From positions 3,163,030 through 3,227,029 of the forward strand of contig OZ240245.1 in the NCBI GenBank assembly GCA_965198175.1: a stretch of DNA of 64,000 nucleotides, written 5' to 3'. Source of the stretch: Candidatus Poribacteria bacterium (GTDB taxonomy: Bacteria > Poribacteria > WGA-4E > PCPOR2b). A program made the translations under genes and the position numbers. Every line of letters starts with the position of its first letter. Positions within the stretch are counted from its first letter, which is position 1. Below, one piece after another: positions 36,430-60,970 of this stretch. A model generated the notes under the pieces. That model made no database searches, was not told the DNA's origin, and worked only from the letters and a program-made list of their open reading frames with translations.

Positions 36430-36545
36430 AGTAATTCAGCAATACAACCTTGACCCTACATGTGTTAGGGATATACATTTTTTGCAACAGTTGTTCTGCT
36501 TATGCAGTAAGCAATTCGCAATTAAACTACAATAGGAGGAAAAAA

Positions 36546-49353: not shown

Positions 49354-50775
49354 ATGGCTAAGGAGACCGATGAAAAAGCGTATTCCATTTTTAATAATCG
49401 TACCGTTGCAGACATTCATCAAGGAATCCAGGAGGTTTATCTCTCCGATTCACGTCCATGGGTAGTGGGCTATAGCGGCGGAAAGGACTCAACGACGGCG
49501 CTTCAACTGATATGGTATGCCCTCGAAGAACTTCCGCCTGAACAACGGCAAAAACCAGTTTACGTCATCACGTCCGACACGCTGGTGGAAACCCCTGTGA
49601 TTGTGGATTACATTACGAGCACCTTGGATCGAATTGAACAGGCTGCCCGAAAATCAGGGATGCCGTTTCAAACGCACATTGTCACACCGAAAACGGACGA
49701 GACGTTTTGGGTGAACCTCATCGGCAAGGGGTATGGGGCTCCGTACTCGAAATTTCGTTGGTGCACCGATCGGATGAAGATTCAGCCAGCGAATCGATTC
49801 ATACTTGAGAAAGTGGCTGACTATGGCGAAGTCGTTCTAATTCTCGGTGTTCGCAAAGGGGAGAGCACAACACGAGATCAGGTGTTGAGTTTGCATCAAA
49901 TCAAGGGGTCCCAACTTTCGCGCCATACGTCACTACCCAACGCTTTTGTGTACACGCCAATCGTCGACTTTGGTCTCAACGATGTGTGGATTTACCTGTT
50001 TCAAGTCCCCTCGCCATGGGAAAATGACAACAAGGAGTTATTTGCGCTGTATCGTAATGCAAACGCAGGGGAATGTCCGTTAGTCGTTGACGAGACGACG
50101 CCTTCTTGCGGCAATAGCCGATTCGGGTGCTGGACGTGTACCGTTGTCTCGAAAGACAGGTCAATGGAAGCGATGATTGACAACGGCGAGGATTGGATGA
50201 TGCCGTTACTCGAATTTCGGGACTTTCTCGCCTCAACGCAGGAACCGGAAAACAAGGCTAAAATTCGGGAACATCGCCGTCGTGGCGGATTTGTTAGTGA
50301 ACGAAATGGGCAGTTGGTTCGTGGACCCTATAAATTGGAGTTTTGTAAAGAACTGCTACGAAGACTTCTAGAAACACAACAGCAGGTTCGTCAGGAAGGT
50401 CCCGATCCAAACATTGAGTTAATCACTCCACCAGAGCTTGAAGAGATTCGTAGAATCTGGCGGACCGAGCGTCAAGATTGGGAGGATTGTGTACCACAGA
50501 TTTATCGAGAGGTTGTGGGCGAAAAACTCGACTGGATTGAGGATGACCTTGGGACATTCACAGCGTCCGATAAAGCGATTTTAGAAGAGCTATGTATCGA
50601 CTCGGAAATTCCTGTTACGCTCGTTGCGAAGTTACTCGACACGGAGAGGCAATTCTACGGAATGAGTCGTCGGGCGGCAATATATGACCGAATCAATGCG
50701 GTTTTTCACGAAGATTGGCGATCTGAAGGAACTGTGCTTGCCGACCTTGAAAAGGACGTGGAGAATATGAACTGA
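49354..50775 (+). CDS. dndC: DndC-like DNA-phosphorothioation PAPS-reductase-family sulfurtransferase
   Basis: YSGGKDST PP-loop, FRWCTDRMKIQP, LGVRKGESTTRD, Cys cluster CGNSRFGCWTCT. Stop overlaps the dndD start (ATGA). Confidence 0.75.
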   Translation: MAKETDEKAYSIFNNRTVADIHQGIQEVYLSDSRPWVVGYSGGKDSTTALQLIWYALEELPPEQRQKPVYVITSDTLVETPVIVDYITSTLDRIEQAARKSGMPFQTHIVTPKTDETFWVNLIGKGYGAPYSKFRWCTDRMKIQPANRFILEKVADYGEVVLILGVRKGESTTRDQVLSLHQIKGSQLSRHTSLPNAFVYTPIVDFGLNDVWIYLFQVPSPWENDNKELFALYRNANAGECPLVVDETTPSCGNSRFGCWTCTVVSKDRSMEAMIDNGEDWMMPLLEFRDFLASTQEPENKAKIREHRRRGGFVSERNGQLVRGPYKLEFCKELLRRLLETQQQVRQEGPDPNIELITPPELEEIRRIWRTERQDWEDCVPQIYREVVGEKLDWIEDDLGTFTASDKAILEELCIDSEIPVTLVAKLLDTERQFYGMSRRAAIYDRINAVFHEDWRSEGTVLADLEKDVENMN

Positions 50776-51008
50776 TGATCCTCCACCGACTCACACTCAA
50801 AGATTTTGGACTCTTTTCTGGGGAGCAGACGTTTTGTCTGACTCCGCGAATCAGATACAAGAAGCGGCGTCCTGTCATCCTCATTGGAGGCAAAAGCGGG
50901 ACAGGCAAGACAACTATACTTGAAGCTGTACGTCTCTGTTTGTACGGTCCCCGATCGTTGGGCAACCGTCAATGGGTAACCAATCCTATTCAACTGTCAC
51001 CTAATTAG
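50775..51008 (+). pseudogene. dndD: 5' stub (77 codons) of dndD (SMC-like ABC ATPase); homology ends after the Walker A region
   Basis: MILHRLTLKDFGLFSGEQTF...VILIGGKSGTGKTTILEAVRLCLYGPRSLGNR matches the DndD N-terminus, then diverges and stops 20 nt before the convergent HNH gene. Confidence 0.7.
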
Positions 51009-51028
51009 GATAGTTTTGTGTAATTAAG

Positions 51029-51946
51029 TCATTCTCGAAAAACATTTCCGCGATGCCACGCCATGGCGTCCTGCGCAGGATAAAACTTAGCTTGGTCAGG
51101 CAACTGTATTCTTTTTTTTCGGAGTTCGATGAGTACCCACTCTGACGCATGTTGGTCGTATAATTCCGGTGAAACCTTGACTCTATAAGTCTTGCTCAAC
51201 GAGATTAGTCCTCTGTCAAATGCCCAATGATGCAGCTTGCACAACGAAATCCCGTTCCGTACATCGTTATTTTGAAAGGCATGATACGGGATGATGTGGG
51301 CGGCATCGGTTGCGCTCTCTCCGTCTGTAGTGACGATACACAACTCGCAGACAGCACAAGTATAGTTGTACAGTTGCATGATTGCGCGACGGAAACCCGC
51401 TTGACGAATGCGAATTATCCTTTGGACTAGTGTCGCTGGTTGTTCCGCTACCAAAGGAAGTTTGGTCCTAGTGAATAGTGAATAGGTATATTTCCAAGTC
51501 TCCTGATTCTCCGCAATGAGATTTACCAATTCTTCCTCGAAGTCTGGAAAATAGGTTTGGATAAGCGTTTGGCGTAGCACCTCTCGACTGGCTGGATCGA
51601 CCAACAAAACAAAGAGTTCGTCATCAAGCGTCGAATGGGATACAAGTTTACGTAGACGAGATATGCTTGTGATCCGACGTGCGCTACTCAATTCCCTTTC
51701 ATACCCTGCGTTTGCATGGAGGTGCCAAAATCCAGTACTCTTTTTACCTTTTAAGTGAAAAAACGGCATAGCGATGTTAGGTTGCCGTTCGGTCACTATT
51801 GGCCAATACTTGAGGAAAGTTGCCGCTAATTCAGCACACAAGCGAATTTTGTTTTCGGAAAACTGTCCACTATCTATCAACTCTATGATCGACAAGAGAA
51901 GGACCTGCTGATGTGGTGCGGGACCATGCGCCATGTCTACATTCAA
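51029..51946 (-). CDS. HNH endonuclease-family protein (HNH_2-like) with an N-terminal domain of unknown function
   Basis: C-terminal CAVCEL...AAHIIPY...NGISLCKLHHWAFDRGLIS HNH motif. Confidence 0.65.
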   Translation of the reverse strand: MNVDMAHGPAPHQQVLLLSIIELIDSGQFSENKIRLCAELAATFLKYWPIVTERQPNIAMPFFHLKGKKSTGFWHLHANAGYERELSSARRITSISRLRKLVSHSTLDDELFVLLVDPASREVLRQTLIQTYFPDFEEELVNLIAENQETWKYTYSLFTRTKLPLVAEQPATLVQRIIRIRQAGFRRAIMQLYNYTCAVCELCIVTTDGESATDAAHIIPYHAFQNNDVRNGISLCKLHHWAFDRGLISLSKTYRVKVSPELYDQHASEWVLIELRKKRIQLPDQAKFYPAQDAMAWHRGNVFRE

Positions 51947-51976
51947 GTGACTGAATTTGTGGATATATTTTCTTAA

Positions 51977-53051
51977 GCTTAGGAGTTACGCAGTTGAGAG
52001 CAAATAGGTTATAATTTGAGCATGAATCCATCGAAATATAATGACATTGACTATATCAATTTCTTGGTTGGCACTCAGAAAAGTTACAGTTGTCTTGAGG
52101 CAGAAAAGGTTCAACCCCAAACTGATGACTCACCGGCTCATGATTCGATAACCAGACTTTTGCATCGAGATGAACCCGATACCGGCAAACTGTGGCACGA
52201 ATCAAAAAGTCAGGTGAAATTGAAATCAGGAATTCTAGTTATAGATGATTCGACCCTTAGATGAAGGATCGATCCTTCATCTGATAAACCTTATTCCCAA
52301 AAGATTGACCTAGTGACAAAACACTGGTCGGGGAAACACCATCGAGTTGTGCATGGCATTAACCTAATCACTTTGCTTTGGACGAATGGCGATAGACATA
52401 TTCCATGTGATTATCGAATCTATAACAAAGCCAAGGACGGCTTGACGAAAAATGACCATTTCCGTGCAATGCTGACGGAAGCGAAGAACCGTGGCTTTGT
52501 TCCCGAATGTCTTTGCTTTGATAGTTGGTATGCTAGCCTAGAGAATCTAAAAGCCGTCCGAGATTATGGTTGGAGATGGCTGACTCGTCTAGCTGCCAAC
52601 CGACGGGTCAGTAAAGATTATTCCGGTAATCGTCCTGTAAGTACAGTGCCGATTGAATCAACGGGTACGATTGTTCATCTTAAGGGTTATGGATTGATTT
52701 TGGTATTCAAGGTGGACACTCCAGAAGGTGACATTGAATATTGGGCAACGAACGACTTACACATGAACGAGTTAACACGTCTCAAATATACGGAATGGTC
52801 TTGGGCAATAGAAGAATATCATCGTGGCATTAAGCAATTCGTTGGCGTCGAACGGGCACAAGTGCGGTCGACTCGCACTCAAAGCAATCATATCGGTTTA
52901 GCGCTGAGAGCCTTTCTGAGAATTGAGCATTACTGTTATCATACCGGCACCAGTTGGTTTGAAGCAAAACTCTCAATTGTCAGAAAGGCTGTCCGTGATT
53001 ATTTGGTGCAGCCTCTTTTTACGCTTGAGTCAACTGCGTAACTCCTAAAGC
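51977..53051 (+). mobile_element. IS element (about 1.07 kb) with 17-bp perfect terminal inverted repeats TAGGAGTTACGCAGTTG. Its IS4/IS701-superfamily DDE transposase is interrupted by an in-frame TGA inside a 24-bp palindrome.
   Basis: Left inverted repeat at 51980-51996 and right inverted repeat (reverse complement) at 53031-53047. The transposase reads in a single frame from 52022 to 53041 except for TGA at 52262-52264. Confidence 0.7.
52259..52282. repeat. 24-bp perfect palindrome AGATGAAGGATC|GATCCTTCATCT lying in frame inside the transposase gene
   Basis: Exact reverse-complement symmetry. Removing it deletes 8 codons (R*RIDPSS) and leaves ...DDSTL-DKPYSQKIDLV... contiguous. Confidence 0.8.
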
Positions 53052-53655
53052 TATTGGTGGACATATTATCTTTATGAATCTCTGGTTATAAATCAAATAG
53101 TAGCACACCGATCGAATCGAGAAAGGGTAAACATGGCAAATTCTTTTCTAAACATAAACAAAAGAAAGGTGATTGACCAAGTGATGTCACAGACGGTGGA
53201 ATTCTCAGAACTTCATCGCTTTAACTTATCGCATTCATAAAGTAATTCGCTGGACAGGTGTTTTGGTTGCATTGTATCCTGCGAGATGAAGCTAGGTGAT
53301 TGTCAACGATTCATCTCGGCTTCCTCCAGTCGTGTGAGGTGACTAACCGCCTCACGGGACGTATTGATTGCCATAATTAGGACGTGAATCCCTGTGCCTG
53401 AGGCAACCCAGTTTCACTGTTCAGGAACTGGATTGTCGATTCTCTCACCTAGTCTTAACACTCCTAACCAAATTGAGTATCCCAATGAACCAGCGTCTGG
53501 ACAAAAGGGCGCAGGTGTTTTATTGCCTGCTTTTGTCGCTCAATCTAACAAAGGAGTGTTCACCAATGTTTATCGAATTTCCTCAGCCCGACAAGCTCAT
53601 CAACATTGACATCATCGACCGAATTGAAATCCAAACTGTTCGGTAGCGTGGAGAG

Positions 53656-54856: not shown

Positions 54857-55309
54857 CAATATGTTCTTGAGAGCGAAGCCATGCAGTCAACCGAGGCACC
54901 CCATAGAACGGCGTCTTAGTGTACTGTTCGTCTACTAGACGCATATAGAGTAAATTTTGTTGCGATTCTACTACAGGTCGGTAATAGAACGAAGACCTAG
55001 ACAACCCCAATAGTTGACATTGTCTCGACACCGACGGTGAACGACAGCCCGGTTCAACAAGTTGCCGCTTCGGTTCAACGGAGCCGTTGAGTTTTTTTTG
55101 AAGCCAGTCGAGCTCTACCTTCAACTGACCGATTTGGCGATAGAGTTCAGCGACTAGCTGTTCGTTGTCGGAATCTGCTTTTGAACGTCCGTTTGCAAAG
55201 AGTTGAGGTAATGCTTCAAGCACTTGCTTTTTCCATTGACTGACTTGATTCGGGTGGATTCCATATTCACTGGCAATGTGTTGAGCCCGTGAAATTCTTG
55301 GTTTGCCAT
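54810..55309 (-). mobile_element. IS3-family transposase remnant: OrfA with a 1-nt frameshift near the start, plus the first 60 codons of OrfB; DDE core absent
   Basis: KPRISRAQHIASEYGIHPNQVSQWKKQVLEALPQLF (OrfA HTH and leucine zipper) runs straight into LSVSRQCQLLGLSRSSFYYRP...YGVPRLTAWLRSQ (OrfB N-terminus). Confidence 0.65.
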
Positions 55310-60600: not shown

Positions 60601-60970
60601 CTGTGAACAGCAACTAAGAATTACACATATTTATGTAATTAAAAAAGAGTGTTAACCCCATAGTGAAGACTATCGCACTCACTATTCGTTCGCTTGATCC
60701 TTCGCTATCCGCTCAGTTGATCGCCTTTGGTGATGGGGAGGACATTTGGGGTGTGCGTCGCAATTCGGAGATCGCTCCTACTGAGCGTTGCGGGTAGGAG
60801 GAAATTCCAATTCCCGACAATACATCACAATTCTTGTATCGTTGAAAAACAGCACAGTTGCCTCCGTTGGTAGAGATTCGCTTTAAACCGTTCAACCCAA
60901 CTTCCTGACTTAGGAAAGTGTTCGCAGAGGAAGCGGTAGCAAGTAACCTGTGTCTAAATCGACTTCGTTT

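What the first reader, a model, noticed from the sequence alone, without database searches (positions are those of the whole stretch)
52259..52282. 24-bp perfect palindrome inserted in frame in an IS transposase gene, carrying the only stop codon
AGATGAAGGATC|GATCCTTCATCT is an exact 24-bp palindrome. It contributes 8 in-frame codons (R-TGA-RIDPSS) to an otherwise continuous 340-codon DDE transposase inside an IS with perfect 17-bp inverted repeats. Excising it gives DDSTL-DKPYSQKIDLV, which from memory matches the conserved DDT..EKPYSKK.ELV stretch of related transposases. This looks like a discrete hairpin-forming insertion, possibly a palindromic-element footprint, a hairpin-transposon scar or a regulatory switch, rather than point decay. 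A bacterial SECIS-like UGA-plus-hairpin is unlikely because the UGA lies inside the stem.
Basis: partly seen in the sequence, partly recalled or inferred. Interest (0 to 1): 0.6.

Follow-up and report, generated by a model that had tools for sequence, protein, structure and literature searches.

The report
Stop-carrying palindrome marks a multiplied IS lineage
A 24-base perfect palindrome carrying a stop codon does interrupt this jumping-gene enzyme, but it is the shared hallmark of at least 25 copies that inserted at separate sites in sponge-symbiont genomes, most likely a crippled variant moved by intact relatives.

Summary
AGATGAAGGATC|GATCCTTCATCT lies at 52259-52282, inside a 1068-bp IS701-family element (51980-53047; 18-bp inverted repeats, 5-bp target duplication AAGCT). 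It adds 8 in-frame codons with the only premature stop (UGA, 52262-52264).

All 15 copies without the palindrome read CCCT-A-GATAAA at this site. The window reads CCCT-T+24mer-GATAAA.

The new fact is that this is not a private scar. The identical 24-mer sits at the same position in 25 distinct IS copies, most with their own 5-bp target duplication. They come from at least seven assemblies, including at least 9 copies in one closed 5.09-Mb genome. One of those insertion sites is empty in the window, which is 99.7% identical there, so palindrome-bearing copies transposed recently.

Intact copies share a contig with palindrome copies. Recombination has moved the palindrome onto at least four SNP backgrounds.

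Two other broken alleles have also multiplied: a stop at codon 100, and a 34-nt dispersed-repeat insertion three codons downstream in a sister lineage.

Best reading: a single-origin, non-autonomous allele mobilised in trans. Leaky UGA read-through remains possible. How the palindrome arose is unresolved. Interest is moderate.

The parts
51980..53047 (+). Complete IS701-family insertion sequence, palindrome-bearing form (1068 bp; intact form is 1044 bp)
   Evidence: Inverted repeats and length. Family assignment. 99.5-99.9% identical to the copies in L002-L009.
51980..51997 (+). Left terminal inverted repeat, TAGGAGTTACGCAGTTGA
   Evidence: Same ends in all 40 copies compared.
53030..53047 (-). 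Right terminal inverted repeat
51975..51979 (.). Target-site duplication AAGCT, left copy
   Evidence: Most other copies have their own, different 5-bp duplication.
53048..53052 (.). Target-site duplication AAGCT, right copy
52022..52264 (+). N-terminal reading frame: 80 codons plus UGA. Product ends ...ILVIDDSTLR. It holds the N-terminal helices and strand beta-1 with the DD motif.
   Evidence: exact product P0135 is on record at many places. Secondary structure.
52258..52258 (+). Base that differs with the insertion: T here, C in two copies, A in all 15 copies without the palindrome. Leu79 stays Leu. In RNA it pairs as U.G with 52283.
52259..52282 (.). 24-bp perfect palindrome AGATGAAGGATC|GATCCTTCATCT. 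Its centre GGATCGATCC holds two GATC sites and one ATCGAT site.
52262..52264 (+). In-frame UGA, the only premature stop. It lies in the 5' arm of the hairpin, preceded by AGA and followed by AGG.
   Evidence: TGA is an ordinary stop in this genome (13 of 31 long ORFs).
52265..53041 (+). Rest of the transposase frame: 6 inserted codons, then codons 80-331 of the intact protein, then TAA. Open in 23 of 25 palindrome-bearing copies.
36467..36471 (.). Empty target site (single AGGGA). The 99.7%-identical closed genome ERZ25072670 carries a palindrome-bearing copy here (L005).

Best explanation
One ancestral complex mutation replaced one base with 25 bases in a 1044-bp IS701-family element. It created a 24-28-bp perfect palindrome whose second codon is UGA.

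Translation then stops after residue 80. The product is the N-terminal helical region plus strand beta-1. The rest of the Tn5-like catalytic core is cut off.

The ends of the element are untouched, so these full-length but crippled copies can still be cut and pasted by transposase made from intact sister copies in the same cell. Recombination between copies has carried the palindrome onto several sequence backgrounds.

The window's copy is one member of this multiplied, non-autonomous sublineage.

Shown: the insertion, its single form, its presence at many separate sites, recent insertion, co-residence with intact copies, and recombination.

Inferred: mobilisation in trans, and loss of transposase function.

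Unresolved: how the palindrome was first made.
For: - Same allele at many sites. 25 distinct copies carry the identical 24-mer at IS position 280-303, most with their own 5-bp target duplication. They come from seven assemblies, with at least 9 copies in one closed 5.09-Mb contig.
- Recent insertion. Window 31514-40683 matches the flanks of copy L005 at 99.7% but has the empty site.
- Single origin. All 25 have T or C before the 24-mer. All 15 copies without it have A, whatever their SNP background. No revertant was seen.
- Helpers exist. Intact copies L010-L014 and L044-L046 differ from the window type by one SNP plus the indel. L010 lies on the same 1.36-Mb contig as palindrome copies L002 and L015.
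- Recombination. Mosaic copies exist (L019, L020, L022). All four allele combinations of the palindrome with the SNPs at positions 255 and 385 occur.
- Other broken alleles of this IS also multiply. An Arg100-to-stop allele sits at two sites with separate duplications, on a contig that also has intact copies. A sister lineage with a frame-shifting 34-nt repeat insertion at codon 83 sits at 3 or more sites.
- Location of the insertion. It falls between Leu79 and the invariant Asp80-Lys81, three to four residues after the DD motif at the end of beta-1. A read-through product is therefore likely to be impaired.
- Weak hint of relaxed constraint. Mutations private to palindrome copies are 6 nonsynonymous, 3 synonymous and 2 frameshifts. 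Shared polymorphisms are 10 nonsynonymous to 17 synonymous. This is not significant (p = 0.07-0.27).
Against: - No intact copy was found in the closed 5.09-Mb genome that holds at least 9 nearly identical palindrome copies. Exact look-ups of five intact variants (P0001, P0124, P0125, P0127, P0129) returned no place on that contig. Two more (P0126, P0133) are on record only on contigs of 46.6 kb and 1.3 kb. The search was not exhaustive: only 15 of 88 cluster members could be seen.
- Many bacterial transposases act preferentially in cis, so efficient mobilisation in trans is not a given (general knowledge, not tested here).
- The insertion is exactly in frame. 23 of 25 palindrome copies keep the downstream frame fully open. 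UGA followed by A can be leaky. A self-sufficient, attenuated element is therefore not excluded.
Confidence: 0.58

Rival explanations
1. Attenuated but autonomous element. A small share of ribosomes passes the UGA. This could be near-cognate read-through giving RWRIDPSS, or peptidyl-tRNA-Arg hopping from AGA over UGA onto the adjacent AGG giving RIDPSS. The result is a little full-length transposase with a 6-8-residue loop, plus an abundant 80-residue N-terminal fragment. The arrangement would work like the OrfA/OrfAB design of IS1 and IS3, but through a stop codon rather than a frameshift.
For: - The insertion is exactly 8 codons, and the downstream frame is intact in 23 of 25 copies.
- At least 9 near-identical copies sit in a closed genome with no intact copy found.
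- The AGA-UGA-AGG context allows a one-codon hop.
- The residues just after the insertion (81-90) are a lower-confidence loop in the model.
- The T/C variant at 52258 keeps both the Leu codon and pairing with G52283 (C-G or U.G).
Against: - The insertion separates near-invariant Leu79 from invariant Asp80-Lys81, next to the catalytic DD.
- No take-off and landing codon pair would skip the 24 nt cleanly (read from the sequence).
- With UGA in the A site the hairpin must already be melted, and there is no structure at the usual distance downstream of the stop.
- TGA is a normal stop in this genome.
- Clearly dead alleles of the same IS, one with a frameshifting 34-nt insert and one with a stop at codon 100, have also multiplied. 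Multiplication therefore does not require coding capacity.
- The open downstream frame can be explained by the youth of the copies and by recombination with intact ones.
Confidence: 0.2
2. The palindrome spreads mainly by gene conversion into intact copies that are already in place, and not by transposition of palindrome-bearing copies. On this view it behaves as a small selfish or drifting allele within the IS population.
For: - The palindrome is found on at least four SNP backgrounds, each with a near-identical intact counterpart.
- Recombination breakpoints lie within 24 nt upstream and about 100 nt downstream of it.
- Mosaic copies exist.
Against: - Eight S4-type copies in one closed genome are identical or differ by one SNP, and no intact copy was found there. 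That would require copy-by-copy conversion of all of them.
- The L005 site is empty in a 99.7%-identical strain, so that copy arrived recently.
- From general knowledge, double-strand breaks at palindromes should favour loss of the palindrome, not gain.
Confidence: 0.12
3. The 24-mer is a copy or a footprint of a small mobile palindromic element, of the REP, RPE or miniature-transposon kind, or a scar left by excision of another transposon.
For: - A sister lineage of the same IS carries a dispersed 35-38-nt genomic repeat inserted three codons downstream, and at two further sites in the gene. Short mobile or templated inserts do therefore reach this gene.
- Both inserts start with TGA(A)GGATC and contain GATC.
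Against: - Neither the 24-mer, its 12-nt arm (1 mismatch allowed) nor the 14-nt extended arm (2 mismatches allowed) occurs outside this IS in about 254 kb of related genomes, beyond two weak 2-mismatch matches that look like chance.
- There is no second match in the window even with 3 mismatches.
- The core 20-mer was not found in the viral or JGI metagenome collections. The JGI result is weak, because that collection also missed L001's own sequence.
- A profile of the dispersed repeat does not hit the palindrome at E up to 100.
- No target duplication flanks the 24-mer. Instead one base is replaced.
Confidence: 0.05

Closest known systems
Non-autonomous derivatives of insertion sequences, moved in trans by an autonomous partner (MITE-type relationship)
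   Same: Same terminal inverted repeats and the same 5-bp target duplication as the intact partner. No complete transposase frame. Many copies. The intact partner is present in the same contig or sample.
   Different: The element is full length (1068 against 1044 bp), not a short internal-deletion derivative. The disabling lesion is an in-frame palindromic insertion. No partner has yet been found in one closed genome.
OrfA/OrfAB expression of IS1 and IS3-family transposases by programmed -1 frameshifting
   Same: If the UGA is leaky, the element would make an abundant N-terminal fragment and a rare full-length enzyme from one message. This is a resemblance in how it might work, not a tested one.
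   Different: There is no slippery heptamer and no frame change. The signal would be a stop codon inside a hairpin. No expression data exist. The family is IS701, Tn5-like, for which I know of no reported recoding.
Translational bypassing: phage T4 gene 60, and 'byp' inserts in yeast mitochondrial genes
   Same: A short insert in a coding sequence, a stop codon directly after the last sense codon, and a hairpin that includes the stop.
   Different: There are no matching take-off and landing codons that would skip the 24 nt. Only an AGA-to-AGG hop over the stop itself is possible. A nascent-peptide signal cannot be tested.
Rickettsia palindromic elements (RPE) inserted in frame in protein genes
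   Same: A palindromic insert, in frame, within a coding sequence.
   Different: RPEs are about 100-150 bp, occur in many unrelated genes, and are translated without a stop. This 24-mer occurs only in one IS and carries a stop.
Template-switch mutations at quasi-palindromes (complex replacement of a few bases by templated sequence)
   Same: One base is replaced by 25 in a single step, giving a perfect inverted repeat. The left flank plus left arm resembles the reverse complement of IS positions 689-708 (17 of 19 bases with one gap; 1 of 300 shuffles scores as high).
   Different: The supposed template does not match exactly. It would give a long-range inverted repeat, not a local palindrome. 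The origin remains unresolved.

Membership tests
IS701 family insertion sequence | DDE transposase matching the family profile above its curated cutoff | tested here: met
   NF049921 transpos_IS701_2: E = 1.3e-115, 386 bits against a cutoff of 250, residues 11-325 of the frame with the 24-mer removed. Pfam DDE_5 and DDE_Tnp_1 also match. The closest solved fold is Tn5 transposase.
IS701 family insertion sequence | Terminal inverted repeats and a short target-site duplication | tested here: met
   18-bp perfect inverted repeats. 5-bp duplications that differ from site to site.
Non-autonomous IS derivative (trans-mobilised) | Lacks a complete transposase frame but keeps the ends of the autonomous partner | tested here: met
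   UGA after codon 80 in all 25 copies. Ends identical to the intact copies.
Non-autonomous IS derivative (trans-mobilised) | Copies at several independent sites, with evidence of recent insertion | tested here: met
   25 distinct sites. The L005 site is empty in the window at 99.7% identity.
Non-autonomous IS derivative (trans-mobilised) | An autonomous partner in the same genome | tested here: inconclusive
   Met on contig ERZ25072076:ctg245708 (L010 together with L002 and L015) and in samples ERZ25067264 and ERZ21862620. Not found in the closed genome ERZ25072670, but only exact look-ups of known variants were possible.
Non-autonomous IS derivative (trans-mobilised) | Moves only when transposase is supplied in trans | not testable with these tools
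   Needs a transposition assay.
Programmed translational bypass (gene 60 type) | Matching take-off and landing codons flanking the skipped stretch | tested here: not met
   CUU, AGA and GAU were checked against all in-frame landing positions. No pair removes the 24 nt and stays in frame. Only AGA to AGG across the UGA is possible (sequence).
Programmed translational bypass (gene 60 type) | Stop codon right after the take-off codon, within a hairpin | tested here: met
   AGA-UGA in the 5' arm of a 12-bp stem, -16 kcal/mol.
Bacterial selenocysteine insertion (SECIS) | UGA followed by a SECIS hairpin recognised by a family model | tested here: not met
   No SECIS or other relevant Rfam match at E up to 10. 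The UGA lies inside the stem. No tRNA gene in the window.
Dispersed palindromic repeat (REP / RPE / miniature element) | Many copies at unrelated sites in the genome | tested here: not met
   Found only inside this IS, in the window and in about 254 kb of related loci. 0 hits in the viral and JGI scans. The complete host genomes were not scanned.
The 35-38-nt dispersed 'GGGATC...CTATCGC...TATTCG..TTGATC' repeat of these genomes | Sequence similarity to the repeat profile | tested here: not met
   An nhmmer profile of 14 copies finds window 60663-60722 (E = 7e-11) but not 52259-52282 at E up to 100.
Transposon excision footprint | Duplicated target bases around remnants of a known element's ends | tested here: not met
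   Intact CCCT-A-GATAAA against CCCT-T+24-GATAAA: one base is replaced and nothing is duplicated. No element with these ends was found.

The most novel reading that the evidence does not exclude
The palindrome is a recoding and attenuation module acquired by an IS701-family element. The UGA inside the hairpin is passed at low frequency, by read-through or by an AGA-to-AGG hop. Each copy then makes mostly an 80-residue end-binding fragment and a trace of active transposase. That would let this sublineage multiply on its own, for example to at least 9 copies in a closed genome where no intact copy was found. It would be the first stop-codon-based OrfA/OrfAB-like control in a Tn5-like bacterial insertion sequence.
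Probability: 0.15. Interest if true: 0.75.

Novelty: new variant of a known kind. Interest (0 to 1): 0.4.

Why it matters
This finding shows that a lesion which looks like the death of one IS copy is in fact the shared mark of a successful sublineage. Counting 'pseudogenised' transposases copy by copy would therefore misjudge which elements are still moving.

It also provides a natural test case for a long-standing question: how well can a full-length bacterial IS with a nonsense lesion be mobilised in trans, given the usual cis preference of transposases?

If the closed genome truly lacks an intact copy, the case turns into a candidate for stop-codon recoding in a Tn5-like transposase. That can be tested directly with a 60-nt reporter cassette.

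Three different broken alleles of one IS family have each multiplied: the palindrome, a dispersed-repeat insert three codons away, and a stop at codon 100. This points to unusually permissive IS dynamics in these sponge-associated genomes.

Tried and rejected
- Chance palindrome: rejected. No shuffle reached 24 bp, and intact copies lack it.
- Assembly artefact: rejected. The same 24-mer appears in long-read assemblies, short-read scaffolds and a Logan assembly from different samples.
- UGA reassigned to a sense codon: rejected. 13 of 31 long ORFs in the window end in TGA.
- SECIS or another known RNA family: no match.
- Clean ribosomal bypass of the 24 nt: no matching codon pair (sequence).
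- Reversible precise excision acting as a switch: no evidence. None of 15 intact copies has the T or C that excision would leave.
- Member of the dispersed repeat found in the sister lineage: rejected by a profile search.
- Origin by template switch from IS positions 689-708. The similarity is suggestive (17 of 19 bases; 1 of 300 shuffles). It is inexact, it does not yield a local palindrome, and it was found after looking at many alternatives. Left open.
- Selection test on mutations private to palindrome copies: too few events (p = 0.07-0.27).
- Conservation of the 24-mer itself (0 variable sites): uninformative. About one variable site would be expected at the overall density of variable sites (own estimate).
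- Two JGI metagenome scans found nothing. The second should have found L001's own sequence, so that collection evidently lacks these samples and the negative result is weak.
- The single genome-contig scan returned only one frameshifted copy with an intact site, in a Candidatus Poribacteria genome.
- Cross-mobilisation by a second IS701-like element with nearly the same 13 terminal bases (L006): noted, but its transposase is only 32% identical.

Full report
**1. What is in the window**

The 24-mer AGATGAAGGATC|GATCCTTCATCT lies at 52259-52282.
- It is the only match in the window even with three mismatches allowed.
- It is the only perfect palindrome above 14 bp. None of 100 dinucleotide shuffles reached 24 bp.

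It sits inside a 1068-bp element at 51980-53047.
- The element has 18-bp perfect inverted repeats, TAGGAGTTACGCAGTTGA.
- It is flanked by a 5-bp target duplication, AAGCT.

With the 24-mer removed, the frame encodes a 331-residue transposase.
- It matches NCBIfam IS701_2 at 386 bits against a cutoff of 250.
- It also matches Pfam DDE_5 and DDE_Tnp_1.

With the 24-mer in place the frame reads ...DDSTL-R-UGA-R-I-D-P-S-S-DKPY.... The UGA at 52262-52264 is the only premature stop. TGA is an ordinary stop in this genome: 13 of 31 long ORFs end in it.

**2. It is an insertion**

- Eleven homologues, including one 99% identical, lack the eight residues.
- The DNA of an intact copy (L001) reads GACCCT-A-GATAAACC. 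The window reads GACCCT-T-[24-mer]-GATAAACC. One base is replaced by 25, and nothing is duplicated.

**3. It is not private to this copy**

An exact look-up of the 80-residue truncated product found it at eight places:
- six on one closed 5.09-Mb circular contig (ERZ25072670:ctg256829_31x_c);
- two in other assemblies.

Two variants of that product differ at residue 4. Look-ups of these variants and of the C-terminal fragment added further places.

I compared 40 distinct copies of the element.
- 25 carry the identical 24-mer at the same position. Of these, 23 have T before it and 2 have C.
- 15 lack it, and all 15 have A at that position.
- Most copies have their own 5-bp target duplication.
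- The closed genome holds at least 9 palindrome copies.

Window 31514-40683 matches the flanks of one of those copies (L005) at 99.7%, but the window has the empty site, a single AGGGA at 36467-36471. Palindrome-bearing copies were therefore still inserting after two very close strains separated.

**4. Intact partners and recombination**

Five identical intact copies (L010-L014) and three more (L044-L046) each differ from the window type by one SNP plus the indel. L010 lies on the same 1.36-Mb contig as palindrome copies L002 and L015.

The palindrome occurs on at least four SNP backgrounds. Each has a near-identical intact counterpart.

Two observations show frequent exchange between copies:
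- mosaic copies exist;
- all four allele combinations of the palindrome with the SNPs 24 nt upstream and about 100 nt downstream occur.

The palindrome is always linked to the neighbouring base: T or C with it, A without it, on every background. This argues for one origin, and against repeated precise gain or loss.

**5. Other broken alleles of the same IS also multiply**

- An Arg100-to-stop allele sits at two sites with separate duplications, on a contig that also has intact copies.
- A search with the 80-residue fragment found many short products ending ...DDSTLDKP in sister lineages. One cluster has 55 members.
- In the DNA of those copies, CCTT-AT-TCCC at codon 83 has become CCTT-[about 36 nt]-TC.... 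This is a net gain of 34 nt, with an immediate in-frame TGA and a frameshift. In one locus the insert is a 186-nt array of three such units.
- These 1078-bp copies lie at three or more sites. One has a clear TATGA duplication.

Multiplication of coding-dead copies is therefore a general habit of this IS family in these genomes. This is the strongest argument that the palindrome copies need not code for anything.

**6. What the stop does to the protein**

An AlphaFold model of the intact protein has mean pLDDT 78.
- It places three N-terminal helices before strand beta-1 (residues 71-80, ILVIDDSTLD).
- The insertion falls between Leu79 and Asp80. Asp80 and Lys81 are invariant in 48 homologues.
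- The closest solved fold is Tn5 transposase.

Termination at the UGA therefore gives the N-terminal region plus beta-1, without the rest of the catalytic core. A read-through product would carry 6-8 extra residues three to four positions after the DD motif.

**7. Could the stop be passed?**

The RNA hairpin is real: a 12-bp stem including one U.G pair, about -16 kcal/mol. Several points argue against a programmed event:
- The UGA lies inside the 5' arm, so the stem is melted when the stop is decoded.
- No Rfam family matches.
- No codon pair allows a clean 24-nt bypass.

The AGA-UGA-AGG context would allow a one-codon hop or plain near-cognate read-through.

Points in favour of read-through:
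- the exact in-frame length;
- the open downstream frame in 23 of 25 copies;
- the closed genome without a known intact copy.

None of these is decisive. The copies are young, they recombine with intact ones, and the search of that genome was limited to exact look-ups of known variants.

Mutations private to palindrome copies look neutral: 6 nonsynonymous, 3 synonymous and 2 frameshifts, against 10 to 17 for shared polymorphisms. The numbers are too small to be significant.

**8. Origin of the palindrome**

This is unresolved.
- No other copy of the 24-mer or its arms exists in about 254 kb of related genome sequence.
- A profile of the dispersed repeat does not match it.
- The left flank plus left arm resembles the reverse complement of IS positions 689-708 (17 of 19 bases with one gap; 1 of 300 shuffles scores as high). 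In one sister copy that same segment is the site of a repeat insertion.
- The similarity is inexact, and I treat it only as a lead for a template-switch origin.
- The centre GGATCGATCC is what a filled-in GGATCC would give. That is only an observation.

**9. Host**

Three lines point to a sponge-associated, Poribacteria-like host. All are inference.
- The only hit among the species-representative genomes is a Candidatus Poribacteria genome that carries a decayed copy.
- The same dispersed repeat occurs in that genome, in the window and in the other loci.
- The short-read sample names look like sponge microbiome studies.

**10. Verdict**

- The reading 'discrete insertion, not point decay' is right.
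- The reading 'scar of one dying copy' is wrong.
- The most likely account is a single-origin, non-autonomous allele that has been carried to dozens of sites in trans and shuffled by recombination (confidence about 0.58).
- A leaky, self-sufficient, attenuated element is the main rival (about 0.2). It is also the most novel reading.

Noticed in passing
window 60663-60722 (possibly also 55121-55149); L007 6780-6850 and 9500-9600; L026, L030, L033, L047, L051: A dispersed short repeat of about 35-38 nt, consensus roughly (G)GGATCT-CTATCGCRCTC-CTATTCGNTCNNTTGATC. It often has 2-3 tandem sub-units. Several copies lie just after a terminator-like hairpin (AAAAAGGGGTGTCAACCCC). No Rfam match. Its nature and way of moving are unknown.
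   Followed up: partly
L047-L051 about 1868-1911; L052/L053 1868-2055, about 2375-2412 and about 2450-2485: The same dispersed repeat is inserted inside sister-lineage copies of this IS. At codon 83 there is either a single unit or a 186-nt array of three units. At two further places there are 35-nt inserts, both at the target AA^TCGT and in opposite orientations. This suggests site preference or microhomology-templated insertion.
   Followed up: partly
window 36467-36471: Empty target site (AGGGA) for an IS copy that is present in the 99.7%-identical closed genome ERZ25072670 (L005). This is a strain-level insertion polymorphism.
   Followed up: yes
L032 and L033, IS position 364: A second nonsense allele of the same IS (CGA to TGA at codon 100), at two sites with separate target duplications. 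An independent case of a dead copy that multiplied.
   Followed up: partly
window 49354-51946: Fragment of a DNA phosphorothioation (Dnd) island just upstream of the IS. It holds a DndC-like PAPS reductase (473 aa) and a DndD-like ATPase cut to 77 aa (50775-51008). An HNH_2 endonuclease gene lies on the other strand (51029-51946).
   Followed up: partly
window 52667-52686 compared with 52253-52271: The reverse complement of CGATTGTTCATCTTAAGGGT (IS positions 689-708) matches the palindrome's left flank plus left arm at 17 of 19 bases with one gap. Only 1 of 300 shuffles scores as high. Possible trace of a template-switch origin, or chance.
   Followed up: partly
L006 8840-9925: A second, distant IS701-like element (345-aa transposase, 32% identical) in the closed genome. 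Its terminal 13 bases (TAGGACTTACGCA) match this IS's TAGGAGTTACGCA at 12 of 13 positions.
   Followed up: partly
L048-L051 about 2250 onward: The sister-lineage IS copy is cut at the same internal position by a nested element that encodes a DDE_Tnp_ISAZ013 transposase. The same composite is seen behind at least two different left flanks.
   Followed up: no
L004 6447-10243: A MutS gene whose product carries intein-splicing and LAGLIDADG homing-endonuclease domains, according to the precomputed gene table.
   Followed up: no
Metagenome-contig collection: The gapped pattern that matches L001 (a JGI contig) exactly returned no hit. The scanned collection therefore does not hold that sample, and negative results from it are weak.
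   Followed up: yes
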